Virus record (IMG/VR): IMGVR_UViG_2875703104_000002 | DNA from: a virus | Lineage: Duplodnaviria > Heunggongvirae > Uroviricota > Caudoviricetes | Direction: 5' to 3' (one strand) | Length of the DNA stretch: 37,887 nt | Part shown: positions 506 to 18,082 of the stretch, piece by piece | Position numbering within the stretch: the stretch's first letter is position 1 | Layout of the letters: every line of letters starts with the position of its first letter | Notes under the pieces: model-generated | Databases searched by the model: none | Seen by the model: the letters and a program-made list of their open reading frames with translations, nothing else | Told to the model about the DNA's origin: nothing | Made by a program: the position numbers and the translations under genes

Positions 506-1696
506 TTAAACAGGCTGCCCCTGATGCGACATCCGCGTCGCCAGCGGTAGCCAGCACAGCACGATCAACAATCCCATTAAGGTCATCAACAATCCCAGGC
601 TGCCCTGACCGGTTTGCGGCAACATCGCAGAGAGCGACGCCAGCACGCCGGAACCAATGTTTTGCAGACCGCCGACCAGCGCGCCAGCGGTGCCCGCCAG
701 GAAGGGGAACGGCTCCATCGCGCCGCTGGTAGCCAGTGGAAACAGCATCCCGGCACCGAAAAAGAACAGCGCGGCGGGAATGAGCAGCGTCCAGACATTC
801 ATCACGCCAAACCAGTCGGGGATCCACATCAGCAAGCCAGCCAGCAGGCAACAGATAACCGACTGCCACATCAACGTTGAGAAGCGCTTATTGGGACGTC
901 CGGCAAACCATGCGCCAAAAAATGCCGCCGGAATCGGCAGAATAAACAAAATACTGACCGTCATACTGCTCAGCCCTAACACCGCGCCCATCAGCACGCC
1001 GGAGCAGGCTTCAAATGCGGCAATCCCGGCCAGACCGCCAATCAGCATCAGCAAATAACAGTTAAAACCGCTGTTACCGAAAAGCGTTTTATAACTGGTA
1101 AGCAGGCGCGTGCGCGGTGCGTCGACCGGACGCGTTTCCGGCATCCAGCGGGCCATACTGAAAGTCACACCGGCACAAAGAACCAACAAAAAGAGATAAC
1201 AGGCACGCCAGTTCCACATCGTATCCAGCAGACCGCCGATTAGCGGTGCGAGCAGCGGACTGACAAGAATCCCCATGTTTAACAGGCTGTTAGCGTGGCG
1301 CAACTGTGTCCGTTCATATAAATCGCGCGGCAAAGTACGCGCCATTACGCCGCCAACGCCGGTGCCCATCCCCTGCATCGCGCTGGCGGCAATCAATACC
1401 ATCAAACTGGAGGTCGTGACCGCGACCAGCGTTGCCAGCATAAAAATGGACATTCCGACGAGGATCACCGGTCGGCGACCCACGCGGTCGGAAATCGGGC
1501 CATAAAACAGCTGTGAGACACCGTAAGTCAGCAGATAAGCGCCCATTACGCTCTGCACCGCCCCTTCACGGACATTGAGATCGCGCGCCATATCGGCAAT
1601 AGCTGGAATATAAATGGTTTGCGCCATCTGACCGACGGCCACGAGTAATACCAACATCAATAACAAATTGACGTTTCTATGCCTTTTCATTATCAC
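506..1696 (-). CDS. emrD: MFS multidrug efflux transporter EmrD
   Basis: 396-aa ORF, highly hydrophobic with multiple predicted TM helices; sequence recognised as E. coli EmrD (N-terminus MKRHRNVNLLLMLVLLVAVGQMAQTIYIPAIADMARDL). Confidence 0.9.
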   Translation of the reverse strand: MIMKRHRNVNLLLMLVLLVAVGQMAQTIYIPAIADMARDLNVREGAVQSVMGAYLLTYGVSQLFYGPISDRVGRRPVILVGMSIFMLATLVAVTTSSLMVLIAASAMQGMGTGVGGVMARTLPRDLYERTQLRHANSLLNMGILVSPLLAPLIGGLLDTMWNWRACYLFLLVLCAGVTFSMARWMPETRPVDAPRTRLLTSYKTLFGNSGFNCYLLMLIGGLAGIAAFEACSGVLMGAVLGLSSMTVSILFILPIPAAFFGAWFAGRPNKRFSTLMWQSVICCLLAGLLMWIPDWFGVMNVWTLLIPAALFFFGAGMLFPLATSGAMEPFPFLAGTAGALVGGLQNIGSGVLASLSAMLPQTGQGSLGLLMTLMGLLIVLCWLPLATRMSHQGQPV

Positions 1697-1856
1697 GGAT
1701 GCTTTTATAAAAATAATTAGAATAAGTCACTACGCATTCCCATAAATGCGGGAGAGGAATCTATCACATTGATGAATGTTAGCCAGATATACGCCAGGAA
1801 TGGGGAATTGTTTAGCGGCAGAATATGTAAACAAAAGCGGCAATAAATGTTGCCGG

Positions 1857-1906
1857 TGAAGCGGCGCACGAAAAACGCGAAAGCGTTTCACGATAAATGC
1901 GAAAAC
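1857..1906. mobile_element. attR: Mu right-end (attR) terminus with MuA-binding sites R1/R2; terminal dinucleotide 5'-TG at 1857-1858
   Basis: Sequence TGAAGCGGCGCACGAAAAACGCGAAAGCGTTTCACGATAAATGCGAAAAC matches the 50-bp Mu R-end used in MuA in vitro transposition (from memory); host DNA immediately to the left. Confidence 0.85.
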
Positions 1907-1933
1907 TTTAGCTTTCGCGCTTCAAATGAAACA

Positions 1934-1955
1934 GCAGTATTAATTACTGCTTTTT
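1934..1955. terminator. Hairpin (GCAGTA-ttaat-TACTGC) followed by T5, overlapping the mom stop codon; possible bidirectional terminator
   Basis: 6-bp inverted repeat with 5-nt loop at 1934..1950 followed by TTTTT on plus strand and preceded by an A-run (U-run on minus strand). Confidence 0.3.
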
Positions 1956-2697
1956 ATTCATTACATGGGGATCGCTTAGGGTATGGCTGAACCTTGAATA
2001 GTTTGGTATTTAGCCGCTTCCTTGCTCGCTTGTTCAGGAATCTGATGTAGCGATACTGATTAAATTTGTGCACCACGGCACGCTCTTTATTAGCCCGTAA
2101 ATACACGCCTCGTTGTCCACCTCGCTTAATCGCGTTCATCGTTATCTCGTGATACCACTCACCATCCAGCTCGTAGAATGTACTTTCATGACTGCCAATA
2201 AAATCAAAATTCGACGCCTGATACACAACGCCTGCGCGTCCGCAGCGTTCGTCTGCAAAGGACTGAACCCACTCCACTGACGGATACAGTAACCTGATGG
2301 TTTTCAGTGCATAACTGATGACCCGTGATTCAGAGTTGCGGGGCATGTCATCGTGTAGCCACATGCGGTTCAACTCCATATAGCCCCGGTTATCCGTTTC
2401 AAGCACGACACGACGACCTGAGTTGGGGTTAAGGGCATATCCCCACTGGAGAACGCCAACCAGATCGCGTCCGCTGAATACTCCCAGGTGGAGGTAAGAG
2501 TTATTCACAAAACGGCGGGAATAGTGCTTTGTCTGAATAATTGTGCGGGCCAGCCAACAGGATATGGTTTCAACGCGCAGCTCCTTTGAACCATAGCCAA
2601 CAATCTGGCCTTCATACTCAATAACGCACGGTTTCGTCAGAATGCGTGATTTCTTCTCTTTTCCCACAATGTTTCTCCGTGGGATGCTCGCAGGCAT
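1954..2697 (-). CDS. mom: Mom DNA-modification (anti-restriction adenine modification) protein; true start may be downstream of the ORF-track start, near the com stop
   Basis: 247-aa ORF as last gene before the R-end, overlapping the 3' end of the com zinc-finger ORF, preceded by a GATC-cluster regulatory region; matches Mu com-mom architecture. Confidence 0.8.
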
Positions 2698-2806
2698 TCA
2701 GCATTATGATGTGACGTTTGCAACGCGGACACCTGATTTCAATGTGAACAAAGGAATCCGCCTTAAATAACAGTTTGTTGCAGTTTTTACAGCGAATTGA
2801 TTTCAT
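2618..2806 (-). CDS. com: Com, zinc-finger translational activator of mom
   Basis: 62-aa ORF with CxxC...CxxC zinc finger (CKNCNK...CPRCKRH); strong SD AGGAGG 5 nt upstream of ATG; overlaps mom. Confidence 0.8.
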
Positions 2807-2930
2807 CTCACCTCCTTTGCATCAATTCGCCACTATCTTAAAAAACATCATGAGTTGAGTGTGGTTATTGGGGCATAATCGATCTGTATTACCGATCGAT
2901 TCAATTGATTCGATCGTCGTTTTCTATATG
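2807..2930 (-). promoter_or_regulatory. mom/com late promoter region with three clustered Dam GATC sites (2881, 2894, 2912)
   Basis: Three GATC within 35 bp, 75-110 bp upstream of the com start; known Mu Pmom architecture (Dam methylation blocks OxyR; C activates). Confidence 0.6.
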
Positions 2931-3062
2931 TGTTCGCTACGGCTGGGTATCATTTCCGACGAGAATAAACAAAAATTAACCGAGTGGATGCTCTATGCGC
3001 AGAAGGTCGAATATACAGACACCTCCAGCCTGCCAGTAACGTTTCCCGAACAACCAGAATGA
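2931..3062 (+). pseudogene. 3' remnant of an alternative tail-fibre assembly gene (U'-like), convergent with U; N-terminal part missing
   Basis: Plus-strand ORF ends ...LTEWMLYAQKVEYTDTSSLPVTFPEQPE, resembling the conserved C-terminal motif of tail-fibre assembly proteins (compare U C-terminus ...[26 protein letters not shown]); only about 44 codons of homology, upstream part runs into the mom GATC region. Confidence 0.5.
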
Positions 3063-3090
3063 GAGAAGGCCCGGTATCGGGGCTTAATTT

Positions 3091-3618
3091 TTACTCTGGT
3101 TTTTGTGGCCATTCTGGCTTTGCTGTATCCACACGGCTGACCAGAACGCTGTAGCGTTCCCAGGCTTCCAGTCGTGTGCGCTCCTCATCCGTCGCCATAT
3201 TCAGCCTGACAGCGCGTTCCAGCTGCTGGATGACTGATTCAGCTTCGGAAAGCAATGCGGCCTTTTGTAATTCGGCCTGCTGTTGCTGCTCGTCTGCCGT
3301 ATAAATCCGTTTAACCACAGCTCCGTCCTTAAACAGCCACTTTCCTGAATCGTCGGCGCGACGATTGGCGGTGATATCGGGAACTTCGACAACGCTGTAG
3401 CCTGTAGGGTCCAGTGTTGAAGCGTCTCTGGTTACGGCCACAATAATATTGTTCTCGTCGTAAAGAATTTTTATTGTGTCCGGCTGAAAGTTCTTCACTT
3501 CCTCATACCAGTTTTTTCCGTCTTCTGACCACAGCCAGGCAACATTAAAATTTTTTGTTAGCTGATATTGCTCAACGGTTTTTGGATTGCCGGCGACAAT
3601 GTTTTTTAAATGCTGCAT
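3091..3618 (-). CDS. Tail fibre assembly protein (U-like, Tfa family)
   Basis: 175-aa ORF directly downstream of the tail fibre gene; C-terminal Tfa motif W-x-x-Y-x-x-L-x-x-VDT-x-x-PEWP. Confidence 0.8.
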
Positions 3619-3621
3619 AAA

Positions 3622-6266
3622 TTACACCTGTGACACGTTGTACCACGTTCCGTTAATTAACTTTTGTATTGGTCTGAATACTGCCGGATCGTCGCCATCA
3701 ACTTCGCCGACAATGCCAAGCCCGGTAATTACATGGCCTGATTTCTCATACATCACGCCTTTTTGCATGGTCTGAACAACACGTGTGCCAAGTCGGACAT
3801 CCCTCACGTATCGGCCATCAAAATTGCCGTAATCCGAGGGGTTAACGCGCCCCGTAATATTTACGGTTTTATTACTCTGAATGCTGCCGGAAACAAAGCG
3901 CATAACATGGACGTTATTAGCATAAACATCCAGATTACCATCACCATTTTGTTTAAAGCCCGTGTCATTATCACCCAAAACAATCGAATTACCGCCAAGA
4001 GCACTGGATGTTCCTATACCCAGAGCACCATTCAATTGACCACCAGATAACGGCAGTGCACCGACATCTCCCGCTGTAGGTTTTCGCGTTGTGGTATAAA
4101 ACTCAGACCAGTCAGCCTCGAATCCGTAACCGTCACGAGCAGAACGATAAAAAATACCACCGTTCTTATAATTAACGCGAAACTGGGCGGCGGGACAACT
4201 TCCTTCACCGATATTAAAATGAAGAATTAACGTTGATGCCCCACCAATATTTGCGTTATAGGCTCCGCTACTCCAGTTCCATCCAACGGCTTTATCATTC
4301 GCAACGGTGTCTCCTGTTTTTCCTGAAGCAAATGCACCAATATTTTTCGGCGTCAGGTTAATATCTGATGTTCCATCAAACGAAACGTTATTAATTTTAT
4401 TCCTGAAGCAAATGCACCAATATTTTTCGGCGTCAGGTTAATATCTGATGTTCCATCAAACGAAACGTTATTAATTTTACGGGCTGTTTTCAGCTTTGTT
4501 GCTGTCGCCGCATTGCCGGACAGTTCACCAGAAAGGCCAGCACTGAATGCCTGTTTCGCGCCCCATGTCTGGGCTTCGTCAATGATTGGTACTCGTCTTG
4601 TTGTGATCGTGCGGCTTCCCGGATTTCCTGAAATGCGCACCATAAAAAAGCGGTAGTTGGCTTTACTTACAGTGCTGCGCCATACATGCATTGAGCGCCC
4701 CGTACCGGAATCATCACTCGGACCAACTGCGATGTTTATCAGGTTGCCATCAATGACGCCCCAGTCCATACCGTCGGGAATATTGGTCATATTATCCAGC
4801 CGAACGGTTATCAGACTGCCCGGCACAAAATCGTAGGTCTGCCAGTCCAGACTGGATAGTTTTGCCACTGCGCCACCGATGCCCAGATTCAGGGGAAGTG
4901 AATAAGATGTGTAAACTTCCCGCCATTCGCTCCATGAGCTGCCGGTAAAAACGCGCTCAAACGTGCGACCTTTAAGGGTTGTACCTGTTCCGGCAGTTGT
5001 ATAACGCTGCCATACGTTAACACCATCAAAGCGCCTCAACACTTCCAGAATACCGAGGACTGTCACGCCGTTTCCGTCCAGTATTGGACCGTTGGTTGCT
5101 TTACCTGTAACGCTGTAAATACCTGGTGAAGTCACATCATTCAAATCCCCGTCGTAATAACGACTCTCTGACTGATGACCGACTCTTAACCACGGTTCCC
5201 ACTGTGGGTTCTCTGCATTCCATGTAGCAGAAAGGCAGCGAACATATACGTTCCCACGGCGGGTCGTATAGCGTTGCGTGCGTGAGTACCCACCACCCTC
5301 AAGAACTTCAAGGAGTCCCTGACCATAACTTCCTTCTTCCGGATAGTTGCGGTCAAATGAAGCGATAGAGCCACTACTGTTTCGCCATAAACCAAGATGC
5401 TCTGCGCCTCCTAGCGTGTTCAGGTCAATAGCTGTGCTCAGGGGGCGTGTTGCAGACTGAATCTGACGCCAGTAGCTCCACGGACCGTCTGAGCCATTCC
5501 AGGTGCCAGAAAGATTACGCATATAAACATTGCCAGTTCTGGTGGTATAACGCTGCATTCCGGAAAAATTACCGCCATTGAAGACCTCAAGAACACCGAC
5601 TGCACCGTCTTCAGGGAAATTTTTCTCCAGTGTTGCGTTGGAGGATGTGGATTTATACCAGACACCCACATAAGCCTTAACTGGACCAAATGTATTGATA
5701 TCAGCATCAACCGGCATTTCGCCGTTGTTTTTCATAAACGTCAGGCTGGTAACGCCAACATTGTCCAGAAAAGCTGATTTATCCTGGATATCTGCACCAT
5801 TCTGATTTTTCGCCAGACGTGAATTTGCGTTGTCATTTGCTGCCTTGACCGCTTTTGGCGTTGCGGCGAGTGCTTCGGATGTGCTGTTGGTAGCACTACT
5901 TAGCTGAACCAGCCCCTTTTTGCTCACGCTGGCATCATAAATACCCAGATTTTCACGTGCTGTGCGCTGTGCTGATGCCCCGGCAGTTTTTATTTCGCTG
6001 AGGTTATTTTTTATCAGCAGCGCGTTCTTGTTCATGATGGCTTTAATGGACAGTGCAAGCTGGTTTAATTTTGTTTTATCCGGTTGAATACCGGCTTCTT
6101 CCAGCGTGTTTAATAACTCCGCCTGCACAATATTAAACCAGTCCATGCCGGGCCATGTGATAACATTATTCCCGTCACCTTCTGAAAACCAGCGAACGAT
6201 AGCACTACGCTGGGCGGATACGGGCGGCATGACGGTTACGCCGCTGTCGTTATCAATATAAAACAT
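3622..6266 (-). pseudogene. Tail fibre protein (S-like), frameshifted by an 80-bp tandem duplication: 637-aa N-terminal ORF 4353..6266 plus out-of-frame C-terminal continuation 3622..4320
   Basis: Hand translation shows minus-strand frame continuous from 4398 to 3622 with no stop; ORF1 and that frame encode the same peptide KINNVSFDGTSDINLTPKNIGAFASG across the two repeat copies; removing one copy fuses them into about 854 codons. Confidence 0.8.
4320..4479. repeat. Perfect 80-bp tandem direct duplication (copies 4320..4399 and 4400..4479) inside the tail fibre gene
   Basis: Both copies read TTCCTGAAGCAAATGCACCAATATTTTTCGGCGTCAGGTTAATATCTGATGTTCCATCAAACGAAACGTTATTAATTTTA; 80 is not a multiple of 3. 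Confidence 0.97.
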
Positions 6267-6808
6267 TAGTTATCTCCGTCATGGTAAACAAATTTATAAA
6301 TCTGATGCGCGGGTTTATATTTCTCCAGTAAACATTCCAGCGCACCCGATTCATAAACACGTAACGGCGTCAGAACATTATCCAGCACCGTTGCGTTGCG
6401 ATAATTTTTAATACCGTAAATATTGACCTGCGTAACCCACTGGCCTTCTGTGGAATCCGTCAGCCTGACGGTAAAACCGTACTGCGCAGCCAGCCATTCA
6501 TAAAAGCGCCGACTCAGATTGCCGGTCATACGCATTTTATTCGCGGCAGCCCGCTGGCGTTCGGACAGGGTGCCGTTTTCGCTTGTACAGTCCGGCAACC
6601 CCAGAAATGATTCCCACTCCCCCAGATACCAGCGGGATGTGGACGGGAAACGCTCCCGCAGCATTTGCCGCGCATCATCCGCCGCAGTGGCAATCACGTC
6701 GCTGATGGCCTGCGCCAGCGCAGATAATTTGCTGTCGGGGCTTTTATTCCAGGCAAGCCCTGACGGCAGTAATTGCAGAAAGGCCGTCTGATAGGGTGTT
6801 ACAGCCAT
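6266..6808 (-). CDS. Baseplate/tail protein (Mu gp48-like)
   Basis: 180-aa ORF immediately upstream of the tail fibre gene with overlapping stop/start; position and size match Mu gp48. Confidence 0.65.
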   Translation of the reverse strand: MAVTPYQTAFLQLLPSGLAWNKSPDSKLSALAQAISDVIATAADDARQMLRERFPSTSRWYLGEWESFLGLPDCTSENGTLSERQRAAANKMRMTGNLSRRFYEWLAAQYGFTVRLTDSTEGQWVTQVNIYGIKNYRNATVLDNVLTPLRVYESGALECLLEKYKPAHQIYKFVYHDGDN

Positions 6809-7881
6809 TCAATTGTCCCCGGTGTTAACAGTTCCGTATTCTCCGAACGCTGGATCTCTGTCGGGAAACGCACTTCAAAATCATCCAGACCGGTAACACC
6901 TGCCACCGCACGGATAATACGGGAGGGGGCAAGTGCGCCGCCCGGCGTCACCTCATTAAAAAACATGGTATTAATGGCGTGGGTAATAGCCTGTTTCAGT
7001 TCGGCTGTCTTCGGTGATATATAAATCCGTGGATTTACCGGCTTTGCCTTTGGCGCAAATACCGTGACATTTACACCGTCAGGCTGCCCGACAATCAGGC
7101 CGGTTATCGGGTCAGTATGACCGGCGATATAATCCGCCACACGTTCCACGTCTGCCGGTTGTGGAAAAATATTGCTCCGGTTATCCATAACAAACGTCAC
7201 CCCGACTGTGCCACCGCCTTTCCATGTCGGAAAACACCAGGCACGGGTAACGCCGCTGACTTCACGCGCCCAGCGGACGTAATCAAACTGATTACCGCCG
7301 AACGGAGGATACTGGACACGATATTCCAGCCGTGACAGCAGCTCCGCTGCACTCTCAATATCAGCCCCACCGGAAAACCCTTTTACAGTGATGGCATCGG
7401 AAACAACACAGGCAACCGGGGTGATCAACGTTAAAAGGGTATTCTCACCGGTATTTCCTGCCTCACCGGCAGCCAGTGCGGTAACGGTAATTTCCGTCGT
7501 TCCTGCACGGTCAATCACAATGGCATCAGCCAGGCTGTAAACCACACCATCAGCACGCTGCCAGCGTGTACCGGCAGGAATGGTGGTCGCTGCCGATGTG
7601 GTGACAGTCAGCGGGCCGCTGGCGGCTGTCGCCTGTTTGCGGCGCACGCCCCAGAACCGGCAGTGCTCCAGCAACTCATCTTCATCTGCTGTCGACGGGA
7701 TAATCTGCCGTCCAACCCATGAAATATGCTCGTGACAACCGGCAGCAAGGCCCGCCTGAGCATAAGCAATGGCACTCAGCGTTTTTTCACGGGCCTGAGG
7801 CCAGCTACCCGGCAGGCGCTGTTCAATATTCTGTTCTGTACGGGCAATCAGCGATGATAATGTCGGTGGTGAATAAGCCAT
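6799..7881 (-). CDS. Baseplate J-like protein (Mu gp47-like)
   Basis: 360-aa ORF in the baseplate block; size and position match Mu gp47. Confidence 0.7.
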   Translation of the reverse strand: MAYSPPTLSSLIARTEQNIEQRLPGSWPQAREKTLSAIAYAQAGLAAGCHEHISWVGRQIIPSTADEDELLEHCRFWGVRRKQATAASGPLTVTTSAATTIPAGTRWQRADGVVYSLADAIVIDRAGTTEITVTALAAGEAGNTGENTLLTLITPVACVVSDAITVKGFSGGADIESAAELLSRLEYRVQYPPFGGNQFDYVRWAREVSGVTRAWCFPTWKGGGTVGVTFVMDNRSNIFPQPADVERVADYIAGHTDPITGLIVGQPDGVNVTVFAPKAKPVNPRIYISPKTAELKQAITHAINTMFFNEVTPGGALAPSRIIRAVAGVTGLDDFEVRFPTEIQRSENTELLTPGTIEWL

Positions 7882-8319
7882 TTAAACCCCGTTAAATGCT
7901 GCTTTAAACTCATAAGGAATAACGGAACCATCCGGTAATGTCAGTGCAATGTAGAGGTATAACCAGCCCTGATGTAACTGTTCCGCTCTGACGTTAATCG
8001 CACTTACCCGGCCCGCTGTTTTCAGCCATTCCAGCGCCTCTTCGGCATACCCTCTGGCGCGTTCCAGCGTATCCGGTGTGGCTTTTTCACGTGATAACAG
8101 CCACAACCGCGAACCGATGGGGCGGTCGCGGTAACTGTCCCCCCACCATCCACGGCGATCATCTGAACCATCCGGCAGCGTGTCAGAATCCAGCGCGCGC
8201 CGGTCGGTAAACAGGGAGATTGTCACATCGGTTGTCAGGCTGTCGTCGGTCAGCATATCAATGCCATCCTGTGCAATATCGCCGCGTCCGTTCGTCCAGA
8301 TAATGGCTAAATCGGTCAT
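7882..8319 (-). CDS. Baseplate wedge protein (Mu gp46-like)
   Basis: 145-aa ORF, translationally coupled within the baseplate block. Confidence 0.65.
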   Translation of the reverse strand: MTDLAIIWTNGRGDIAQDGIDMLTDDSLTTDVTISLFTDRRALDSDTLPDGSDDRRGWWGDSYRDRPIGSRLWLLSREKATPDTLERARGYAEEALEWLKTAGRVSAINVRAEQLHQGWLYLYIALTLPDGSVIPYEFKAAFNGV

Positions 8320-8909
8320 TGCATTGGCCCCGTGGTTCCGCCGCTGTCGCCACGGTGGATATGCTTATCCGTCGATTTGCCATTGATGATGGCATCCGGG
8401 GCAGTAATATTGCTGTCGAACTGGCTTTTACCTTTAACGCCCAGACCTTTCTGGATCTCAACGTCGCCGGTAAACGTGGTTCTGGGTGTGTCAACGGTCA
8501 TACTTTCATCAGCGTAAACCTCGACCGTTTTACAGGTAATGATGCAGCGTCCGTCCTTTGTCAGCCTGATACGATGCCCCTCATGGTGGTAAATGCCTGC
8601 ATCACCCGGTTCAAGATTTGTCGGGCGGTAGCGGCGGTCTTCCACCACAACGGCGATCCCCTGATCACGTTGTGCACCCACACAGGCAATCAGCGCCTCT
8701 GCGCCCGGCAGGGGAACGCTGAAATGTCCGTAATTTTGCAGGCGCTCCACTTCATCGGATTCCTCATCATCCAGCAGACCGACCTGCAGGTTCTGAACCT
8801 TTCGCCCGTCGTTAATCACGTTAACAACAGCGCGCGCAAGCATCAGGCGCACACGACGCATCAGCGGCGTCAGCAGGCGGTTCAGGGCGGAATCATTTAC
8901 TCTTTCCAC
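8316..8909 (-). CDS. Baseplate hub/spike protein (Mu gp45-like)
   Basis: 197-aa ORF; position and size match Mu gp45. Confidence 0.65.
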   Translation of the reverse strand: MERVNDSALNRLLTPLMRRVRLMLARAVVNVINDGRKVQNLQVGLLDDEESDEVERLQNYGHFSVPLPGAEALIACVGAQRDQGIAVVVEDRRYRPTNLEPGDAGIYHHEGHRIRLTKDGRCIITCKTVEVYADESMTVDTPRTTFTGDVEIQKGLGVKGKSQFDSNITAPDAIINGKSTDKHIHRGDSGGTTGPMQ

Positions 8910-10036
8910 GGCGGTGTTTTCTCCGGGTGTCTGCGATAATAATCTTCAACCAGCGCATCAATACCGCCGTTACTGTCGCCGCCTTTCCTGTTTTTACGGT
9001 CGCTTTCAACCGGCACCAGAAAGCCTTCGCGTGGTGCAAGGCTGACGCGGGTTTTCAGCCCGTCCTGGTCATTCAGTATCAGGGTGACTTTGCTGACCAG
9101 TAATTCCGTGGTTTTGATGGCATATTTCGAGGCATCAATAGTGACCAGCAGGTTCGGCATCCAGAGTTGCCCGTCCTTGCGAGTCCATCCGTCAATTTCA
9201 GCCTCAAAGGTGATGGATTTTGCCAGTCTGCGGCGTTGCTCACGCAGGGCGCGGGCCTGTGCATCCTTCGCCGTAATTTTGCTGTCGGCAATGATGATCA
9301 TCGGTCTGTAACGGGTCACATCACTGTCAGTGGCGGTCCCTTTCCGGGAGACGATACTTTTCGCATCAATATCATCACCCTCAGCACCGTTTGCGCGGGC
9401 ATACCCCTTGACGGTGTATTCGCTGAACCGGTCGCGGAAGTCTTCCTCAAAATCCAGTGTCAGCAGATTTTCTCCGAGAACCAGCTCATCAGTGGCTGTG
9501 CTGGCAGCCCGGCTGAATACCAGCTCTCCGGCGGCATTGCTGGTCATCAGTACACCGCGTGCGCGGGAGGCACGCACCAGCGCCTCATAAACGGTTTCTG
9601 AATGGTCCAGCGTGAAGCCGGGAAAAGCTGCCGAACTTTCCTTATCGGAAAGCTCCCAGCGAACGGTAACGCCATAAGGGGTGCACAGGTCACGCGCAAT
9701 CTGCTCCAGTGTGCGGTTTTTCCACTGTCCGCCACTGTAAACGGCAGCACAGTCAATCAGGTCAGCCGTTTTGTCACGTCCGGCGATAGTGATTTTCATG
9801 CTGTCAGCGGTCATCTGGCGTCGCCGCGAATCGATATAACCGGTGCAGACAATCTGCCCGTCGATTTCCAGCGTGAACGCCTTCCCCGGTGCCAGCCCGG
9901 ATAAATCCGTGCCCGGTGGCACGTTCACCCCCAGCTCAAAATATCCGGCTACGGATTCAATGGAGCGGGTGACAGAAACTGACGACCAGCCGGTAAACAG
10001 CCTGCCATCCGCTCGCAGTGTGACGGTATTACTCAT
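8897..10036 (-). CDS. Baseplate protein (Mu gp44/P-like)
   Basis: 379-aa ORF between the N-like gene and the hub gene; size matches Mu gp44. Confidence 0.7.
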
Positions 10037-11516
10037 TAATCACCTCAATACTGACACCACCGGGAACAAATAACGGGTTGCTGCTGCCATTCCTGCGGGC
10101 CAGCCGTTGCCAGTTCCGGCCGTTTCCTGTGTAACGGTACAGGGCCACCACTGCGGGCATCGTCTCCGGCAGGCTGTGCATTTCACTGCCCGCCAGTTGC
10201 AGTCCGCGTTTTTCCAGGTCAGCAACAACCAGCAGGCGCAGTTGCGTAAGCTGAACGCTGTCTGTCGAAAAACCCTGCTCAGATGCCGTCAGAATGACAC
10301 TGTCCAGTGCGGCCCCCAGCATGGCTGTGGTTTTTTCGATATCGGACACACTTTCAAATACCGGGGGCGTGGCTGTACCACTGTCTGAAAAGGATACCGG
10401 TGAAAAACCGCCGTCCGGGGTTATGGCAGTTAACTGTAACTGTCCCTGTGTGACGGTAGCGGATGTGCTGCTGGCCCCGCTGGCTGTGCCGGTTGTGGTG
10501 GACAGGGCATCCAGTACAGGTGCACGGGCGGCATTATCCATCCGGCGACTGAAATCCAGTGCCGCAGTCAGTGCCTGGCTGGCAGCTTCTGCCCGGTATG
10601 TCTGCGCCGCTGCCAGCATGACGTAGTTCAGTGTGGCAATATTTTTTTCTGCAACCGGACTGTTGTACGAGGTTGTGATTGCCCCCTGTCTGCCTGCGGT
10701 GGCGGCATGGCGACGTTCGAATCGCTGCGCCAGACGGTTCCAGGTGGAAAATGCTGTCCGGGTATCGCATAACGATGAAACGCCGGACAGCGCCCCCATC
10801 AGCGAGGAGGCCAGCATGGCAGGCTGGTTAATCAGGCTGGTCACAGAGCCTTTCATCGCAGAAAGCGATCCCATCAGACCGCTGACAGTCTGCGTAACCC
10901 CCAGATTGTCCACCGCATCACTGATATCATCGATGACACCGGTTACAGCTTCCATCACGGCGGTTGCCGCCGCAGTGCCATCTTTTACGGTCTGCCAGAC
11001 AGAGGACAGCGTATCCCCCAGAGAACCGGTTACAGCAACGGCCTGTGCCGGTACGGCTGCACTGGTGTCTGTCTCTGCGTCCGGGGCAGTATCCTGCAAC
11101 GACGGATAAACGGTAACGGTGAACGCGTAATAATTCAGTTCATCCGCTTTAGTGCGACATTCCCATGAATCCACCATGACGTCCACAGTGCCGAAATCAG
11201 GATGTACCAGTTCACCGCTACCCGGAGCATCAAGAGCATCCATCAGCGCACCCGCTTCATCTCTGGCTGTTTCTGCGTTGCTGTTCAGAATGCAGGCGCT
11301 GAATGTACGGGAGCGAAGCTTTTTCCCCAGGTCATTGACGCCGCCGGTATCACGTAACGGGTACTCGCGTTTAACCAGGCGACGTCCGCCAGCCTGTTTT
11401 TGCTCCTCGATGACGAGAAACGGCACGTTACGGAACGTGCCTTTGCCGGTTGTTTTCTTACCACCGCTGATTTTATCCCGGACAGCATTAACGGCATTTA
11501 AAGCATCTTCAAACAT
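10029..11516 (-). CDS. DNA circularisation protein N-like (Mu gp43-like)
   Basis: 495-aa ORF immediately downstream of the tape measure gene; size and position match Mu N. Confidence 0.7.
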
Positions 11517-11520
11517 GGTT

Positions 11521-14007
11521 TTACCAACCTGTAATGTAGTTATCGCCCGCGTAAATATTCAGCCCCATACCATCCTCGGTGACGCGGGAACTGGTCAGAC
11601 GTAACCCCTCGCCGAGTTCGACGCGCAACGAGGCTTCCGCATTGACTTTTTGTTCCTGCGGTTCCTTATCCGTGGCCGTCCATTTCTGATACAGGTCGGT
11701 TACAAAACCGCCCAGATACTCCCCGGCGACACTGCCCAGCGTGGCACCGGCAACCGTACCCAGCGGTCCGGCAAGGCTGCCAACGGCACCGCCGAGCCAT
11801 GCACCGGCTGTACTGCCAATTGCGCCTGCTTTTTCATGGGTTGACGCCTGTTCATCCATCAGGACGGGGGCAAGCTGGAGTGCCCCCATTACCGGGCCAC
11901 CCAGACGTGACAGGGCACGACCGGCACCTTTCCCCATCCAGCCCAGCGCCCCGGCACCTTTTGTCACAACCCGACCGATCGCACTGCCTGCAAGTTTGTT
12001 TCCGATACCGGAAAACCACCCGCCAACGGCACGCCCGGCATCAGCCAGCTTTCCGACCGTTCCCGTAACCAGTTGCCCGGCAGCACTGCCTGCAAGCCTG
12101 CTCAGAAGACCGGATTTACCGGGCAAAGGCTGTGGCGCAGGGCGTGGTATTACCGGCACGCCCGGAGATGGCACGGGCTGCCTGTTTCCGGCACCGGAAA
12201 GCAGTCTGCTGACAGTACGCCCGGCATCCGCCAGCGTTCCTGCCGCTCCCGTAACCTGCTGCGCGGCAGCGCTGCCTGCCAGCTTGCCCGGAAGACCGGA
12301 TTTAGCGGGCAAAGGGCGTGGCGCGGGGCGTGGTATTACCGGCACGCCCGGAGATGGCGCGGGCTGCCTGTTTCCGGCACCGGAAAGCAGTCTGCTGACA
12401 GTACGCCCGGCATGCGCCAGCGTTCCTGCCGCTCCCGTCACCTGCTGCATGGCAGCGCTGCCTGCAAGCCTGCCCGGAAGACCGGATTTACCGGGTAAAG
12501 GTCGTGGCGCGGGGCGTGCTGCTGCCGGAACGCTGGGTGGGGGTAATGGTGCAGGCCGTGCTGTTACCGGTACGCCGGGTGGGGGTAATGCCAGTACAGG
12601 GCGTGGTGCAGGTAATGCCAGCGGCTGTGGCCCGGACAGCAATAACGGCTGGCGGGGTAACAGCGTGGGCATTCTTCCGCCGCTCCGTACGCGACGACCG
12701 CCGCCACTCCCGTAGCCACCAAATCCACGGGGCCAGTTGATGACAAACACACGCTGAATGCCGATACCCTGCAACAGCGTCTCAGACGTCATGGCATCCG
12801 GGACCGGCAGGCCTGCCTGCCCACGTTTGCGGTTTCGCATCCAGCGCCACATACGACGCCCGGTTTTAAACGGATAACTGGCAACCTGCCATGAGGGTTT
12901 TGCCACGGCCCAGCCTGCTCTCAGGGCTTTATTGGCAAGCCAGACAGACACCAGAACAGCAGCCAGTTTTTTCAGGCTGACAATATTCTGGTCAACCCAT
13001 GCCAGCGCATCTTTACCCGGTTTCAGCCAGCGCCATAATTCCTGCGCCGCGATTTTTACCGTTCTGAACGTGGTCAGAAATTTCTGACCAATGTTTTCTG
13101 CCAGTGCGTCAAGTTCCCCGGATTTATCCGCCATGTCGTGCCAGTTAAGCACCCGGCGCATCTCGTTCTTGATTTCTTCAAAGGGGCCGCTGTTTGCCAC
13201 CTTTATGCGAAATTCAAGCAGGTTGGCTTCCATCTGTGCGAACATCCCGTCCCAGGAGTTCATCGCACTGGCTTGTGCACCTTTTGACTGTTCTGACAGC
13301 GTTCTGAATACCGTCAGAATGGATTTCATGCCCAGCTTGCCCTTTGTACCCAGATCACGGATTTTTTTAACGTCCGTTCCCGTTGCATCCGCCAGCGCCT
13401 GATAAACATTGATACCGTAACCGGTCAGCAGGTTGGCATCCGCCGCCGTGATTTGCTGGCGGGCAAACATCTGTTTCAGTTGCAGTGAGGCACCCTGTGC
13501 AGTGGGTAAATCCCAGCCGTGCATGGCCCCCTGATCCTGCAACATGGTGATGAACTGTTTCGTCTGTTCATCCGTCATGCCGAAGCCTTTCGACGAACGG
13601 ATCTCATCCAGAACACCACTCAGCCCCCACGTGGTGTCCTTCGCGTTCTGCTTCGCCCAGGCCATCATAGCCTGCGCTCTGACCTTATCGCCGTGATACA
13701 GCGAGTTCATAGCGATGATCTGCTGCTCACGCTGGGCGGCTGCACCAATAAACAGTTTATTGGCGGTGTAACCCACGCCAGCGATACCCAGCGCCCCGGC
13801 TGACAGCATTCGGAATGTACGGGTTGACAGAGAACCCATTCTGTCAATTGCACCAGAAACGCGCACAACCTCCATACGCAGGGCTCGCAGGGAACTCTGC
13901 CCACTACGGGACAGGGCGTTTATCTGGCTCGAATACTGGCGGGAACGCCGGGAAAGATTGCCATTAAGATCAATAATGACAGACGCCTTTAAGCGTTTCC
14001 CGGTCAT
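11521..14007 (-). CDS. Tail tape measure protein
   Basis: 828-aa ORF between tail chaperone and baseplate genes; Gly/Ala-rich C-terminal region, Pro-rich linker and internal 62-aa tandem repeats. Confidence 0.85.
11959..12516. repeat. Three tandem 186-bp (62-codon) repeats inside the tape measure gene (12331..12516, 12145..12330, degenerate 11959..12144)
   Basis: Near-identical DNA units starting TGGTATTACCGGCACGCCCGGAGATGG at 12145 and 12331; encoded units RPAPRPLP(G/A)KSGLPG(R/K)LAGSAA...PSPGVPVIP. Confidence 0.85.
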
Positions 14008-14151
14008 AGAGATTTCCTGATTTAACGGTGGTATTGAGAGAGGTTTTTAGCCAGCTGGCAGTGCCGGAAAAAGCGGGACAGCGGGAGAGACAGAACCCAT
14101 TCAGGGCCACTTTTCAGAATAACACCCGTCGCTGTCACCGCTTTCTCAATA

Positions 14152-14586
14152 TCATTCCGGCACCGCAGCCACTCGCCCCCGTTCTTGTGTCAGCGATGCT
14201 GCAACCGCCATGTCGTACATTTCTGTGGCCAGCGACAGACGCTGGAAGTCATCGGCGGACAGCTTACGGATCAGCGCCATTGACAACGGGCCTTTGATGC
14301 AGCCCACGCTGGCAATCTGTCGGCGCAGCATTTCCAGCCCCATCCGGGACGGGGAACTGACCAGCACCGGGCCTTCCTTGCTCATTACCAGCTTTTCAGC
14401 AGCCGCCTGGGCATCAATCAGATCGCCTGCGGTCAGTTCACGCAGCGTCACGTCATACTGCATTTCAGTTTCGTCATCAGTGCCGAACGGCAGGCCGTCT
14501 TTCAGTTTCAGCACGCCGGACTGGATTTCTGCCACAATGCTGTCATGCAGCTCCTGCGCTTCAGGCCCCAGATTCATTTCTTCCAT
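14152..14586 (-). CDS. Tail assembly chaperone-like protein (Mu gp41-like)
   Basis: 144-aa acidic ORF between tail tube and tape measure genes, the usual chaperone position. Confidence 0.6.
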   Translation of the reverse strand: MEEMNLGPEAQELHDSIVAEIQSGVLKLKDGLPFGTDDETEMQYDVTLRELTAGDLIDAQAAAEKLVMSKEGPVLVSSPSRMGLEMLRRQIASVGCIKGPLSMALIRKLSADDFQRLSLATEMYDMAVAASLTQERGRVAAVPE

Positions 14587-14595
14587 CGTTTCCCC

Positions 14596-14952
14596 TTATG
14601 CAATGCGTTTGCTTTGTTTTGCCATCAGTACCAGCGAAATTTCGCCGCCGTCGTTTTTCGGTTCATCTGCCTGCCAGGCATTCGCCATCATCCAGGTTTC
14701 ACCGGTGTCTGCCTGAAACTCTGCCGTGATGTTTTCCCAGCTGATAATTTCATCCAGACCGATATCACCACCGCCCGGAATTTTGCATTCCAGCTTTGCG
14801 GCACGTGGTTTACCTTTCCAGCCATAAACCCGCGAGCCGGTCACTTCTTCACGGGTGATGCCGGAAGGCGTGAAGGAGGCACCTTCCATCGTTTCAAGCT
14901 CCATGCCATTGACACGGATGAACGCCACCCCCTGGCGCTGAGTTCCAGCCAT
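14596..14952 (-). CDS. Tail tube protein (Mu M/gp40-like)
   Basis: 118-aa ORF directly downstream of the sheath gene. Confidence 0.75.
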   Translation of the reverse strand: MAGTQRQGVAFIRVNGMELETMEGASFTPSGITREEVTGSRVYGWKGKPRAAKLECKIPGGGDIGLDEIISWENITAEFQADTGETWMMANAWQADEPKNDGGEISLVLMAKQSKRIA

Positions 14953-14961
14953 AAATACTCC

Positions 14962-16449
14962 TTACAGAATGAACTGAATTTGCGCCGCAAAAATGCGGAA
15001 CTGGTTGATCAGATTCGGGCCGCACAGCACATCAAGACGGTCTTTGTCATCGCTGTTACGTGCAACGTACAGCTCCTCTTTGAACGTGTCGAAATCCTCA
15101 ACCAGCCCGGAGCTTTCCCACTCTTCAAACAGTGCCAGCAGCTCCGTTTTGATCACGGATGGCGTCACCACGGGCTGACCGGTGGCAAAGCGGGTGCCGT
15201 CATTTGCCAGCTTGTAGTTCGGGAATTTCTGCGTGATGCGGGTTCGCAGCGAATAACGCAGATAACTCAGCGTGGCGATGGTATTCACGTTCAGATAAGA
15301 CGGATCACTGTCACCGTACTTGTTTGTGCGGTACATCGTGATCATGCGTTCAATCTGCATTTCACCACCATCATTCACGTTAAACGTGGAGATGCCGTCA
15401 AACAGCAGCGCATTACGTTCTGACCAGGTGAAACGCTCCCCCACCGCAGGCGGCATTCTTCCGGGTAACGTCAGCGTCTGGAGAGGACGCGCCGGGTCGA
15501 TGGAAAGCGCCTGGCTGGCAACGGCACACAGTGTGGCGGCGTACAGATATGACGGTTCCGGTGCACCGGCAATCCCCATACAGGAGATCAGATGGTCATT
15601 ACGACTGACACCAAACGTGGAAATATCCCCATACGTGCCGGACAGCACTGTCACGGCAAAGCCATCAGCCTGATTGACCGGTCCCCAGCGTTCCTGTAAT
15701 TCCGTGCGCAACAGATTCAGGTTCGCTTCATCGGTATAGGGCATCACAATATATTTGTATTGCAGATCGCCCATTCCCGCGATACTTGCGCTGATATCCG
15801 GGTTGCCATTTTTCCCGGAGGCGGCTTTGAATGCCGTGATAATCCCGTAAGGGGTGGTTTCACCCGCGTAATAGTTCCAGCGCACGTCCACGGCAGATAA
15901 TGCACCCGTAAATTTTGCACTCAGAACCACATCTGCATGGGTGTCATCATCTCCGCTGTCTGCGCGAACTTCTGCCGTCACCGGTAAATCAGGCTGGCCT
16001 TTGATTCGGGCAACCAGCAGGTCAGCCAGCGCAGCCCCTGTAGCACCTGCTGCGACAGATACCGTCAGTCGCTGACCGGCAATGTAAGTCACAAGCGAGC
16101 CGTTTTCGCCAGCCGTTCCTGACAGTGAAATTTCACCGACAGCAGCATTACCGGTGCCGTTCCCCTGCGGAATACACCACAGCTCCGCCACGCGGTTAGC
16201 GTTCAGGAATGCAGCTGCCATCAGTGCCAGCATGGAACCCTGACCAAACGCCGCACTGGCCTGTGAGCCGGAACGGATACGGACAGGCACGTTTGGTGCC
16301 GCACTGGCTTTACTTCCGCTTTGCCCGAACATCAGCACGCGCTGACGGGGTGCTGGTGTTCCGCTGACGGCATTACTGTTATCAAATTCGATATACGTCA
16401 GAGGAACGCGAACATCTGACGGGATCGCGTTAAATGAAATATCGCTCAT
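14962..16449 (-). CDS. Contractile tail sheath protein (Mu L/gp39-like)
   Basis: 495-aa ORF upstream of tube gene; size and position match Mu L. Confidence 0.85.
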
Positions 16450-16652
16450 TTCGATTTACTCCGTTTTTTCGGCGCAGCGTCGGTATCATCCGCCGTGTTT
16501 TCGGTGCTCCCGACTTCAACCACATCACCGGCTGCAAGGCGACGTATCCAGAAACTGTTACGGGGCTTTTCTTCTCCCTCCGGAGCCAGTAATTTCATCG
16601 TGAGCGGGTCACGGATGGCTTTTCCCGCTGCGGGTTTAATTTTCAGCATCAT
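16446..16652 (-). CDS. Small head-tail protein (Mu gp38-like)
   Basis: 68-aa ORF overlapping the sheath gene start. Confidence 0.5.
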
Positions 16653-17184
16653 GATCCTTTTCCTGATTCACATTGATATGTGCGGCAAATTCCGGGGTTT
16701 CGTCCGGGAATTTCCAGGTCTGCCAGTGACGCTCGTAATCATCCAGCGAATCCATGTCCACCACGGACGGCAGCGGGGTAGTGCCACTGAACAGAACGCC
16801 GTAAAGCACCACACCGGCATTGATACGGTTGTCGTCACAAAGATTTCTGACCTGCGTCAGTCTCATCCCGGTGGTCGGGCCAAACGTCTGACCGTTAACA
16901 CCGGCAATCAGTCGCTCCACAATCTGATAAATACCGGGCCGGTTTACCGGTTCCCCGTTCAGCAACTCCGCCACGACAAAAAATGCCCAGCGACTTTCAA
17001 CTTCCCGACGCGTACGCCCCTCACCACAGCCCATCCATGCCAGGAATACCGATGGCGGGGTCAGAAAGAGACGGTGCACATCCTCGTTAGTCCATGTGCC
17101 GGTAAGGGGTTCCACCTGCCGCAGGGTTGCCCCAAACAACTCACGAACGCGCGCCAGCAGTGCGGCTTCGGTTTCTTCCAGCAT
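16636..17184 (-). CDS. Head-tail connector/completion protein (Mu gp37-like)
   Basis: 182-aa ORF in the head-tail joining block. Confidence 0.6.
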   Translation of the reverse strand: MLEETEAALLARVRELFGATLRQVEPLTGTWTNEDVHRLFLTPPSVFLAWMGCGEGRTRREVESRWAFFVVAELLNGEPVNRPGIYQIVERLIAGVNGQTFGPTTGMRLTQVRNLCDDNRINAGVVLYGVLFSGTTPLPSVVDMDSLDDYERHWQTWKFPDETPEFAAHINVNQEKDHDAEN

Positions 17185-17609
17185 CAGATAAACCCCTTCT
17201 GTTTTCGTGAGAAGACCGGCGCGTCAGACTGCACCTGCACAAGGTTTTCACCATCCGGCGAGGCTGCCGTCCTGCTTTCCACGCCGGGATCTGTTTTGCC
17301 ATCGCGCACCTGTTCCAGCCAGCGCACCGTGTCCCTGTAAGTTGCGGTGATCTGCTCGGTGGGTTGTGATTCATTCAGATAAAACCAGGCCACCACGCAA
17401 CACTGCCGTTTCAGCAGTGAGGGGACGACGGTAAGCGGCAGAACAAAGCGCGCGGCGAGATAGCCATCAATAAAGGCCGAAGCATCTGCCAGTGCCTGTT
17501 CTGCCACGGCATCATCCGGCTGCCCGTCCGCTGTTTTAGGGCGGGTGAGAATATCCAGCCGCGTACGTGTATAGCGGGCGCACAGGTCATTTACCGTCGC
17601 GTAATTCAT
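17184..17609 (-). CDS. Head completion protein (Mu gp36-like)
   Basis: 141-aa ORF, coupled to neighbours. Confidence 0.6.
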   Translation of the reverse strand: MNYATVNDLCARYTRTRLDILTRPKTADGQPDDAVAEQALADASAFIDGYLAARFVLPLTVVPSLLKRQCCVVAWFYLNESQPTEQITATYRDTVRWLEQVRDGKTDPGVESRTAASPDGENLVQVQSDAPVFSRKQKGFI

Positions 17610-18016
17610 GCATCCGCCTCAGCCAGCGCCGCTTTGATTTGCGCACTGCTCACCGGTTCCCCCAGCGCCGCACTGACGGCTTTCACTTTGGGTTCTCCCC
17701 CTGCGGTAAAGTGCTCCGGGTTTGCCTTATCCAGACCGGCAACGGTCGCACGGATACGGGTATTCAGATCGCCCACACCCAGAACGTCCAGCCCCCCAGC
17801 CTCAGCGAGCGTTTCTGCTGACGATGCAGATACCACAGACAGCACGCTGTCGGCACGAATGATCGCCAGTTGTTCTTCGGTGACTTCCACGGTGTTTTCG
17901 CCACGTGTAAAGGCGATTCCGGCGCGGCGGTAGACCGGACGAAGGCATTTAATAATCGCCGTGCAAGTGATGCGAGAAGTGTCCAGCCGTTGTGAATTAA
18001 GCGAAGTGCCTGACAT
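17606..18016 (-). CDS. Head-associated protein (Mu gp35-like)
   Basis: 136-aa ORF after the capsid gene, preceded by strong SD AAGGAGGAG. Confidence 0.6.
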   Translation of the reverse strand: MSGTSLNSQRLDTSRITCTAIIKCLRPVYRRAGIAFTRGENTVEVTEEQLAIIRADSVLSVVSASSAETLAEAGGLDVLGVGDLNTRIRATVAGLDKANPEHFTAGGEPKVKAVSAALGEPVSSAQIKAALAEADA

Positions 18017-18074: not shown

Positions 18075-18082
18075 AATGACGG

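What the first reader, a model, noticed from the sequence alone, without database searches (positions are those of the whole stretch)
1697..1906. Mu-type prophage end lies about 160 bp upstream of emrD, within its likely promoter region
The prophage terminus (5'-TG at 1857, followed by the R1/R2 MuA-binding sequence) directly adjoins host DNA 160 bp upstream of the emrD start codon. Insertion by transposition rather than site-specific integration is supported by the Mu R-end and the absence of an integrase or tRNA. The insertion separates emrD from its native upstream sequence and places the mom end and a hairpin next to it, so efflux-pump expression may be altered. The 5 bp just outside the end (GCCGG, 1852..1856) should recur as a target-site duplication at the other junction, outside this window.
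Basis: partly seen in the sequence, partly recalled or inferred. Interest (0 to 1): 0.45.

Follow-up and report, generated by a model that had tools for sequence, protein, structure and literature searches.

The report
Mu-like prophage junction upstream of emrD
This is the right end of an ordinary Mu-family transposable prophage that jumped cleanly into the spacer between the E. coli genes emrD and ivbL, with the expected 5-bp duplication on both sides, and it most likely leaves the emrD promoter region intact.

Summary
Window 1857 (5'-TG) aligns to the last base of phage Mu, and the next 78 nt, which hold the MuA-binding sites, are identical to Mu. Host DNA runs up to 1856.

The window is CP035330.1 (E. 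coli chromosome) 525,900-563,786. The same record gives the left junction 339 bp past the window end: ...CAATACA|GCCGG|AAACAGTG..., followed by ivbL-ilvB, the native neighbour of emrD. The predicted 5-bp duplication GCCGG is therefore confirmed.

- The prophage is 36,370 bp.
- Removing it plus one GCCGG copy gives a 60-mer found at 100% identity in 303 prophage-free E. coli genomes.
- MuA and MuB are present. There is no tRNA, and no integrase was found.
- Prophages with the identical repressor sit at 10 different chromosomal sites.

The functional suggestion is weak.

- The end lies 166 bp, not 160, upstream of the annotated emrD ATG.
- That point is the distal edge of the only emrD-upstream block shared by E. 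coli lineages. K-12 and B2 strains diverge 2-3 bp further on.
- The one published emrD promoter candidate (sigma-54 type, window 1779-1796) is retained.
- A terminator-like host hairpin (1838-1855) is also retained between Mu and emrD.

This is a textbook Mu-type insertion and is probably neutral for emrD.

The parts
506..1690 (-). emrD (MFS multidrug efflux pump, 394 aa from the ATG at 1690)
   Evidence: Pfam MFS_1 at E=2e-41. RefSeq annotation of the identical region in CFT073. Called gene in CP035330.1.
1691..1856 (.). The 166 bp of native emrD-upstream host DNA retained next to the prophage. It is the block conserved across E. coli lineages.
   Evidence: Identical to CFT073 and K-12 up to the insertion point. 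K-12 (REP + tisB/istR) and B2-type strains diverge 2-3 bp beyond it. 5421 of 5426 genomes match window 1500-1860.
1772..1846 (+). ysdE, an annotated 24-aa small protein gene divergent from emrD. Its CDS is intact, and its stop codon lies 10 bp before the Mu end.
   Evidence: RefSeq annotation in CFT073 and K-12. Called as a 24-aa gene in CP035330.1.
1779..1796 (-). Published candidate sigma-54 (-24/-12) promoter element for emrD, TGGCGTATATCTGGCTAA. It is retained.
   Evidence: Sequence listed for b3673 emrD at -100..-83 in PMC2831329. Located in the window. emrD is listed among RpoN targets in PMC8743547.
1838..1855 (-). Host terminator-like hairpin (CGGCAA-CATTTA-TTGCCG followed by CTTTTGTTTA), oriented towards emrD. 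It is left intact between the Mu end and emrD.
   Evidence: Terminator scan. dG -7.5 kcal/mol. Present in the empty sites of CFT073 and K-12.
1852..1856 (.). Right-hand copy of the 5-bp target-site duplication GCCGG. The left-hand copy lies at window-equivalent 38227-38231 (L007 6865-6869).
   Evidence: The single-copy empty site is found at 100% identity in 303 genomes.
1857..1934 (.). Mu right end (attR). It has the terminal 5'-TG and the MuA-binding repeats: R1 about 1862-1883, R2 about 1884-1905, R3 about 1912-1933 (inverted).
   Evidence: 78/78 identical to the Mu right tip. Position 1857 aligns to Mu 36717. Matches to the consensus YMYNWRAARYRCGAAAR at 1867-1883 (+) and 1912-1928 (-), and the core GCGAAAA at 1899. 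The R1/R2/R3 boundaries are taken from my own knowledge of Mu.
1933..1951 (.). Prophage hairpin just downstream of mom, terminator-like on both strands.
   Evidence: dG -8.4 on the minus strand, -9.2 on the plus strand.
1954..2697 (-). mom (DNA modification), transcribed towards the right end and therefore in the same direction as emrD.
   Evidence: Pfam Mom at E=3e-75. 97.6% identical to Mu mom/com DNA.
2618..2806 (-). com (translational activator of mom)
   Evidence: Called gene with Pfam Zn_ribbon_Com in L013, coordinates converted to the window.
33983..34921 (-). MuB transposition ATPase
   Evidence: Pfam Phage-MuB_C at E=6.5e-34 plus AAA domains.
34960..36948 (-). MuA DDE transposase (D108 type)
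   Evidence: Pfam DDE_2 at E=2e-136, HTH_Tnp_Mu_1/2 and Mu-transpos_C. The early region is 96.5% identical to D108.
37363..37887 (+). c-type repressor (D108 immunity type). The window ends at its stop codon, and the prophage left end lies 339 bp further on.
   Evidence: Pfam HTH_Tnp_Mu_1 at E=3e-52. L007 continuation.
1857..37887 (-). Body of the Mu-like prophage, 36,370 bp in all. It continues to window-equivalent 38226, outside the window.
   Evidence: Colinear with Mu and D108 at 96-98% identity except in the tail-fibre/gin and gp27/28 regions.

Best explanation
A 36,370-bp Mu-family (Muvirus) prophage inserted by MuA/MuB-mediated transposition into the emrD-ivbL divergent intergenic spacer of a B2-type E. 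coli chromosome (CP035330.1). It has a D108-type early/immunity region and left end, and a Mu-type right end.

Shown: staggered strand transfer at a preferred target (GCCGG, central CCG/CGG) duplicated 5 bp. One copy now flanks the right end (window 1852-1856) and the other flanks the left end (339+ bp beyond the window). The insertion is simple. Host DNA on both sides is the native, colinear sequence.

Inferred: the right end lies 166 bp upstream of the emrD ATG and the left end 239 bp upstream of the ivbL ATG. The prophage therefore pushes apart two divergent promoter regions without cutting either core promoter. The conserved emrD-proximal block is retained, including ysdE, the candidate sigma-54 promoter and a terminator-like hairpin. 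In a lysogen the adjacent mom operon should be silent, so emrD expression is most likely unchanged.
For: Shown:
- Window 1857 aligns to the last base of Mu and SfMu. The right tip is identical to Mu for 78 nt, and the left tip is identical to D108 for 130 nt.
- MuA, MuB, the c-type repressor and Mom are identified by Pfam. There is no tRNA. The prophage is colinear with Mu/D108, which leaves no room for an integrase. The Pfam listings for the called genes show none.
- L007 and L013, both from CP035330.1, are base-for-base identical to the window's last 6525 nt and first 12266 nt. L007 shows ...CAATACA|GCCGG|AAACAGTG followed by ivbL-ilvB-ilvN-uhpA.
- Deleting the prophage plus one GCCGG copy recreates the CFT073 site with 2 SNPs in 700 bp. 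The resulting 60-mer occurs at 100% identity in 303 RefSeq E. coli genomes.
- Prophages encoding the identical repressor lie at 10 different loci. Nine of the 10 flanking pentamers fit N-Y-(G/C)-R-N. Mu prefers a central CGG in its 5-bp duplication (PMC3292447).

Inferred (effect on the promoter):
- The K-12 and B2 arrangements diverge 2-3 bp beyond the insertion point.
- The sigma-54 candidate at 1779-1796 is retained.
- Terminator-like hairpins lie at 1951-1933 and 1855-1838 on the emrD strand.
- No promoter-like site is predicted on the minus strand in 1400-2800.
Against: - No experimentally mapped emrD transcription start was found in the literature available here.
- The sigma-54 element is a microarray plus motif candidate. 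A sigma-54 promoter would normally need an upstream enhancer, which could lie beyond -166.
- The gSELEX RpoN peak in K-12 was assigned to the istR/tisB spacer, not to the emrD-proximal site.
- Both hairpins are modest (dG -7.5 to -8.4), so late mom transcripts could read into emrD during induction.
- Expression was not and cannot be measured here.
Confidence: 0.9

Rival explanations
1. The insertion changes emrD expression. It could do so by removing upstream regulatory DNA, by read-through from mom, or by the Mu end acting as a barrier or domain boundary.
For: mom and emrD are on the same strand, with only about 260 nt and two modest hairpins between them. A sigma-54 promoter candidate would normally depend on an upstream enhancer, and one beyond -166 would now be 36 kb away.
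Against: - Sequence beyond the insertion point already differs completely between natural E. coli lineages, with tisB/istR+REP in K-12 and an unrelated 160 bp in B2. No conserved upstream element can therefore lie there.
- The candidate core promoter, ysdE and the host hairpin are all retained.
- mom is a late, C-dependent gene that is silent in lysogens (established Mu biology, from my own knowledge).
- gin and its promoter are absent.
- No outward promoter is predicted.
Confidence: 0.12
2. The junction results from a Mu-mediated rearrangement (inversion, deletion or replicon fusion) or from an assembly chimera, not from a simple insertion.
For: Mu replication is known to generate such rearrangements. 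The window itself contains only one junction.
Against: The other junction in the same 5.11-Mb record carries the same pentamer and the native neighbour ivbL-ilvBN-uhpAB in the native orientation. The reconstructed empty site is identical to 303 genomes.
Confidence: 0.02
3. The prophage integrated by site-specific recombination at a fixed attachment site near emrD.
For: None beyond the intergenic location.
Against: - There is no tRNA, and no integrase was found.
- The ends are Mu/D108 att ends with MuA sites.
- The duplication is 5 bp, not an att core.
- Prophages with the identical repressor lie at 10 different loci.
- None of 5426 complete E. coli genomes has a prophage at this site.
Confidence: 0.01

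Closest known systems
Escherichia phage Mu (NC_000929) right end / attR with mom-com
   Same: The terminal 78 nt, including the 5'-TG and the R1-R3 MuA sites, are identical. mom/com are 97.6% identical. Mechanism and 5-bp duplication are the same. The prophage is colinear with Mu at 96-98% identity over most of its length.
   Different: - The early/immunity region and left end are D108-type, about 80% identical to Mu over the first 360 nt.
- gin and the S'/U' half of the G segment are missing.
- The variable tail-fibre part and its assembly gene are P2-like.
- The tape-measure gene is longer (828 aa versus 690 aa).

Escherichia phage D108 (NC_013594)
   Same: The left end is 130/130 identical. 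The first 7.6 kb (c, ner, A, B, early genes) is 96.5% identical.
   Different: D108 has an extra gene 56 between mom and the right end, and a divergent right tip. This prophage has the Mu-type right end without gene 56.
IS/transposon insertions upstream of efflux genes that alter expression (for example IS1/IS2 activation of acrEF)
   Same: A mobile element lies in the upstream region of an efflux-pump gene.
   Different: No outward promoter is predicted here. The insertion is distal to the candidate promoter and to a terminator-like hairpin. No resistance phenotype or expression change is known. The acrEF examples are cited in PMC9783932.

Membership tests
Mu-type (Muvirus) transposable prophage insertion | Element termini read 5'-TG inward at both ends | tested here: met
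   TG at window 1857-1858. The left end reads TGTATTG... in L007, ending at 6864.
Mu-type (Muvirus) transposable prophage insertion | MuA-binding repeats (R1-R3, L1...) at the ends | tested here: met
   The right tip is 78/78 identical to Mu. Consensus matches at 1867-1883 (+) and 1912-1928 (-). The left tip is 130/130 identical to D108.
Mu-type (Muvirus) transposable prophage insertion | Encodes a MuA DDE transposase and the MuB ATPase | tested here: met
   Pfam DDE_2 at E=2e-136, HTH_Tnp_Mu_1/2 and Mu-transpos_C. Phage-MuB_C at E=6.5e-34.
Mu-type (Muvirus) transposable prophage insertion | 5-bp target-site duplication flanking the element | tested here: met
   GCCGG at 1852-1856 and directly after the left end, at L007 6865-6869. 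It is single-copy in 303 empty-site genomes.
Mu-type (Muvirus) transposable prophage insertion | Target fits the Mu preference N-Y-(G/C)-R-N with a central CGG/CCG | tested here: met
   G-C-C-G-G fits. Nine of 10 related insertions fit, against 12.5% expected by chance per site. The preference is documented in PMC3292447.
Mu-type (Muvirus) transposable prophage insertion | No fixed attachment site; no integrase or tRNA target | tested here: met
   0 tRNAs. Ten loci with the identical repressor lie in 10 different chromosomal contexts. No integrase domain is listed for the called genes, and the prophage is colinear with Mu/D108.
Mu-type (Muvirus) transposable prophage insertion | Element is transpositionally active and inducible | not testable with these tools
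   ORF lengths match the Mu/D108 genes. This suggests an intact prophage, but activity needs an induction experiment.
Promoter-altering mobile-element insertion upstream of an efflux gene | Insertion lies between the gene and its promoter, or removes a required cis element | tested here: inconclusive
   The candidate sigma-54 promoter (1779-1796) and the whole lineage-conserved block are retained. No experimentally mapped emrD transcription start could be found.
Promoter-altering mobile-element insertion upstream of an efflux gene | Element supplies an outward-reading promoter or unterminated transcript | tested here: not met
   No promoter-like site on the emrD strand in 1400-2800. Four terminator-like hairpins (two within attR) lie between the mom stop codon and emrD. 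This rests on consensus scans only.
Promoter-altering mobile-element insertion upstream of an efflux gene | Measured change in expression or phenotype | not testable with these tools
   Needs qRT-PCR, a reporter or MIC tests in the lysogen versus an empty-site strain.

The most novel reading that the evidence does not exclude
The Mu-like prophage alters expression of emrD, or of the divergent ilvBN operon on its other side. One route is read-through of late mom transcripts into emrD during induction. The other is separation of the two divergent promoter regions by 36 kb of repressor-bound, domain-forming prophage DNA. Either would give this lysogen a changed efflux or branched-chain amino-acid phenotype.
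Probability: 0.1. Interest if true: 0.3.

Novelty: new member of a known kind. Interest (0 to 1): 0.1.

Why it matters
It matters little beyond annotation. The result fixes the exact boundaries of a Mu-family prophage in a public E. coli chromosome (36,370 bp, duplication GCCGG). It shows that the insertion is a clean transposition and that the neighbouring efflux gene keeps its conserved upstream block. The prophage itself is a mosaic: D108-type early region, Mu-type right end, no gin, P2-like fibre module. That is of modest interest for Muvirus diversity.

Tried and rejected
- **Junction search in complete genomes.** A megablast of the junction against 5,426 complete RefSeq E. coli genomes found no record carrying it. 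The source genome was found instead through an exact-protein look-up of the repressor and the tail fibre.
- **Mapped emrD transcription start.** I looked for one without success. Full-text searches gave only the sigma-54 candidate of Zhao et al. The 'putative TSS' cited in PMC9783932 refers to that same prediction. The supplements of Kim et al. 2012 contain no emrD entry. Thomason et al. 2015 is not held.
- **Sigma-70 promoter scans.** The tool's scan and a laxer scan of my own (at least 8 of 12 matches) found no promoter on the emrD strand in 1691-1856.
- **Rfam scans.** Scans of both junction regions at E<=1 gave only sub-threshold chance hits.
- **The base after the left-hand duplication.** It is A here but G in CFT073 and K-12, and I considered that it might be an insertion-associated mutation. 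I rejected this because the exact A-allele empty site occurs in 303 genomes.
- **A gene cut by the insertion.** Only mechanical, unannotated ORFs span the site, namely 12 and 29 aa on the plus strand and 63 aa on the minus strand. No annotated feature spans it in CFT073 or K-12.
- **Literature on the source record and ysdE.** A search for CP035330 found nothing. A search for ysdE found nothing informative.

Full report
**1. What is at the coordinates**

The window opens with the 3' part of host gene yidF (1-498, +). emrD follows on the minus strand at 506-1690. It gives a Pfam MFS_1 match at E=2e-41 and has the same coordinates as the RefSeq annotation in CFT073.

From 1691 to 1856 the sequence is ordinary E. 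coli DNA. Window 1500-1860 matches 5421 of 5426 complete E. coli genomes, 4991 of them at 99% identity or more. The alignments appear to run to 1860 only because the next host bases (GAA) resemble the first Mu bases (TGAA) once a 1-nt gap is allowed.

At 1857 the sequence becomes TGAAGCGGCGCACGAAAAACGCGAAAGCGTTTCACGATAAATGCGAAAAC.... A blastn search against phage records aligns window 1857 to the very last base of Mu (36717) and of SfMu (37146), at 97.6-97.7% identity over the 844 nt that cover mom and com. Read inward from the tip, the first 78 nt are identical to Mu, and the only differences in the first 130 nt are at positions 79, 80 and 118. Matches to the MuA-site consensus used in the D108 record (YMYNWRAARYRCGAAAR) lie at 1867-1883 (+) and 1912-1928 (-). 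A further core, GCGAAAA, lies at 1899.

There is one correction. The annotated emrD start is the ATG at 1690, so 166 host bp separate it from the Mu end.

**2. Where the window comes from, and the other junction**

An exact-protein look-up of the repressor at the window's end (37363-37887) returned ten loci. In one of them, L007 (CP035330.1, a 5.11-Mb chromosome, assembly GCA_004116855.1), the repressor is followed by ivbL, ilvB, ilvN, uhpA and uhpB. These are the native neighbours of emrD.

L007 positions 1-6525 are identical to the last 6525 nt of the window. The prophage tail-fibre protein (4353-6266) occurs on only one contig in the whole collection, which is the same record. The reverse complement of that locus, L013, is identical to window 1-12266. 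The window is therefore CP035330.1 525,900-563,786.

Reading on in L007, the left end ...CTTCAAGTGAATCAATACA finishes at L007 6864, which is window-equivalent 38226. It is followed by GCCGG and then AAACAGTGATGG... and ivbL. The 130-nt left tip is identical to D108.

The prophage is 36,370 bp long.

**3. Comparison with the empty site**

In CFT073 the site reads ...AAATGTTGCCGG|GAACAGTGATGG.... Removing the prophage and one GCCGG copy from the lysogen recreates this sequence with only 2 mismatches in 700 bp.

One of those mismatches is the base immediately after the duplication, which is A here and G in CFT073 and K-12. This is a natural allele. The reconstructed 60-mer, including the A, is found at 100% identity in 303 complete E. 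coli genomes, among them ATCC 11775.

The event is a clean, simple insertion. It is not a rearrangement or an assembly chimera.

**4. Transposition versus site-specific integration**

- The prophage encodes MuA (34960-36948: DDE_2 at E=2e-136, plus both Mu HTH domains and the C-terminal domain) and MuB (33983-34921).
- ARAGORN finds no tRNA in the window.
- The element is colinear with Mu and D108 at 96-98% identity, apart from a gp27/28 segment and the tail-fibre region. The Pfam labels of the called genes include no integrase.
- The ten loci that encode the identical repressor all end 339 bp after the repressor stop codon, but they lie in ten different chromosomal contexts.
- Nine of their ten flanking pentamers fit Mu's N-Y-(G/C)-R-N rule, where 12.5% per site is expected by chance.
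- GCCGG has the central CCG/CGG triplet that Mu prefers (PMC3292447).

**5. Is the emrD promoter hit?**

Several lines of evidence argue against this.

(a) The 166 retained bp are identical in K-12 and in B2 strains. Two to three bp beyond the insertion point, however, the lineages carry entirely different DNA. K-12 has a REP element, the tisB terminator, tisB and istR. CFT073-type strains have about 160 bp of unrelated sequence before the shared ivbL promoter. PMC2577331 describes the K-12 layout. About 1060 of 5426 genomes have the tisB-less arrangement. Any cis element shared by E. coli emrD genes must therefore lie in the block that is still attached.

(b) The only emrD promoter proposal I could find is a sigma-54 -24/-12 candidate, TGGCGTATATCTGGCTAA (PMC2831329). 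It is also the 'putative TSS' reference in PMC9783932. It maps to window 1796-1779 on the emrD strand, inside the retained block. PMC8743547 counts emrD among RegulonDB's experimentally supported RpoN targets. Its gSELEX peak, however, was assigned to the istR/tisB spacer, which this strain lacks in any case.

(c) ysdE (1772-1846, +) is intact.

(d) A host hairpin at 1855-1838 is followed by CTTTTGTTTA on the emrD strand and has dG -7.5. It survives because the duplication regenerates its outer arm.

(e) mom points towards emrD. It is followed by its own hairpin at 1951-1933 (dG -8.4). Consensus scans found no promoter-like site on that strand between 1400 and 2800. From established Mu biology (my own knowledge), mom is a late, C- and Dam-dependent gene that is silent in lysogens. 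The usually constitutive gin transcript cannot exist here because gin is deleted.

The weaknesses are these. No mapped transcription start was available. A sigma-54 promoter would need an enhancer whose position is unknown. The hairpins are modest.

On the other side of the prophage, the left end lies 239 bp upstream of the ivbL ATG.

**6. Comparison with known systems, novelty and verdict**

Mechanistically and by every testable defining feature, this is a Mu-type transpositional insertion. The features checked were the TG ends, the MuA sites, MuA and MuB, the 5-bp duplication, the target preference and the lack of a fixed attachment site.

The element is a mosaic member of Muvirus. It has a D108-type left end and early region, and a Mu-type right end without D108 gene 56. 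It has no gin and no S'/U', it carries a P2-like fibre module, and its tape-measure gene is lengthened. No phage record covers 80% or more of window 1857-6000.

The junction itself is a textbook case. The suggestion that the emrD promoter is disturbed is not supported by the comparative evidence and cannot be settled without expression measurements.

Interest is low.

Noticed in passing
window 2936-5788 (tail-fibre region; ORFs 3091-3618, 3622-4035, 4353-6266, all on the minus strand): The prophage has no gin invertase and no S'/U' half of the invertible G segment. Mu homology resumes only in the last ~36 nt of gin. The variable part of the tail fibre, a 137-aa ORF and the fibre-assembly gene resemble P2-like phages (up to 92% identity to Peduovirus records). 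Host range is therefore presumably fixed, not switchable. The 637-aa fibre protein occurs on only one contig in the public protein-position index.
   Followed up: partly
window 12031-12518 (inside the 828-aa tape-measure ORF 11521-14007, minus strand): A 186-bp unit is tandemly repeated 2.6 times at 91% match. The tape-measure protein is 828 aa here against 690 aa in Mu and D108, which predicts a longer tail.
   Followed up: partly
window 1856/1857 and L007 6865-7030; compare L001 1858-2020 and L002: The insertion point lies 2-3 bp from the boundary of a natural structural polymorphism. K-12 carries REP + tisB/tisA + istR between emrD and ivbL. This strain and about 1060 of 5426 complete E. 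coli genomes instead carry about 160 bp of unrelated sequence with no annotated feature. I did not examine whether that 160-bp segment encodes anything.
   Followed up: partly
window 31362-37887 and L007 6526-6864: The immunity/early region (c, ner, A, B) and the left end are D108-type: 96.5% identity over 7.6 kb, and the left tip is 130/130 identical. The right end is Mu-type and lacks D108-specific gene 56. The prophage is thus a Mu/D108 mosaic. The identical 174-aa repressor is indexed in 1060 blocks of the public assembly collection.
   Followed up: partly
L005 (GCA_900449075.1) 3857-6864: One locus with the identical repressor has mom and com directly next to a truncated 283-aa MuA N-terminal fragment. 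It appears to be a heavily deleted Mu-like remnant, about 3 kb between the ends, near uvrD/xerC.
   Followed up: no
window 25165-25838 (prophage coordinates 12389-13062): A segment of about 670 bp at the gp27/gp28 (terminase) boundary has no nucleotide similarity to Mu or D108. The neighbouring large ORF is 573 aa, against 551 aa for Mu gp28.
   Followed up: no
window 1 and 37887: The window begins exactly at the yidF start codon and ends exactly at the repressor stop codon, so it was cut on gene boundaries. The prophage left end and the second duplication copy fall 339-344 bp outside it.
   Followed up: yes
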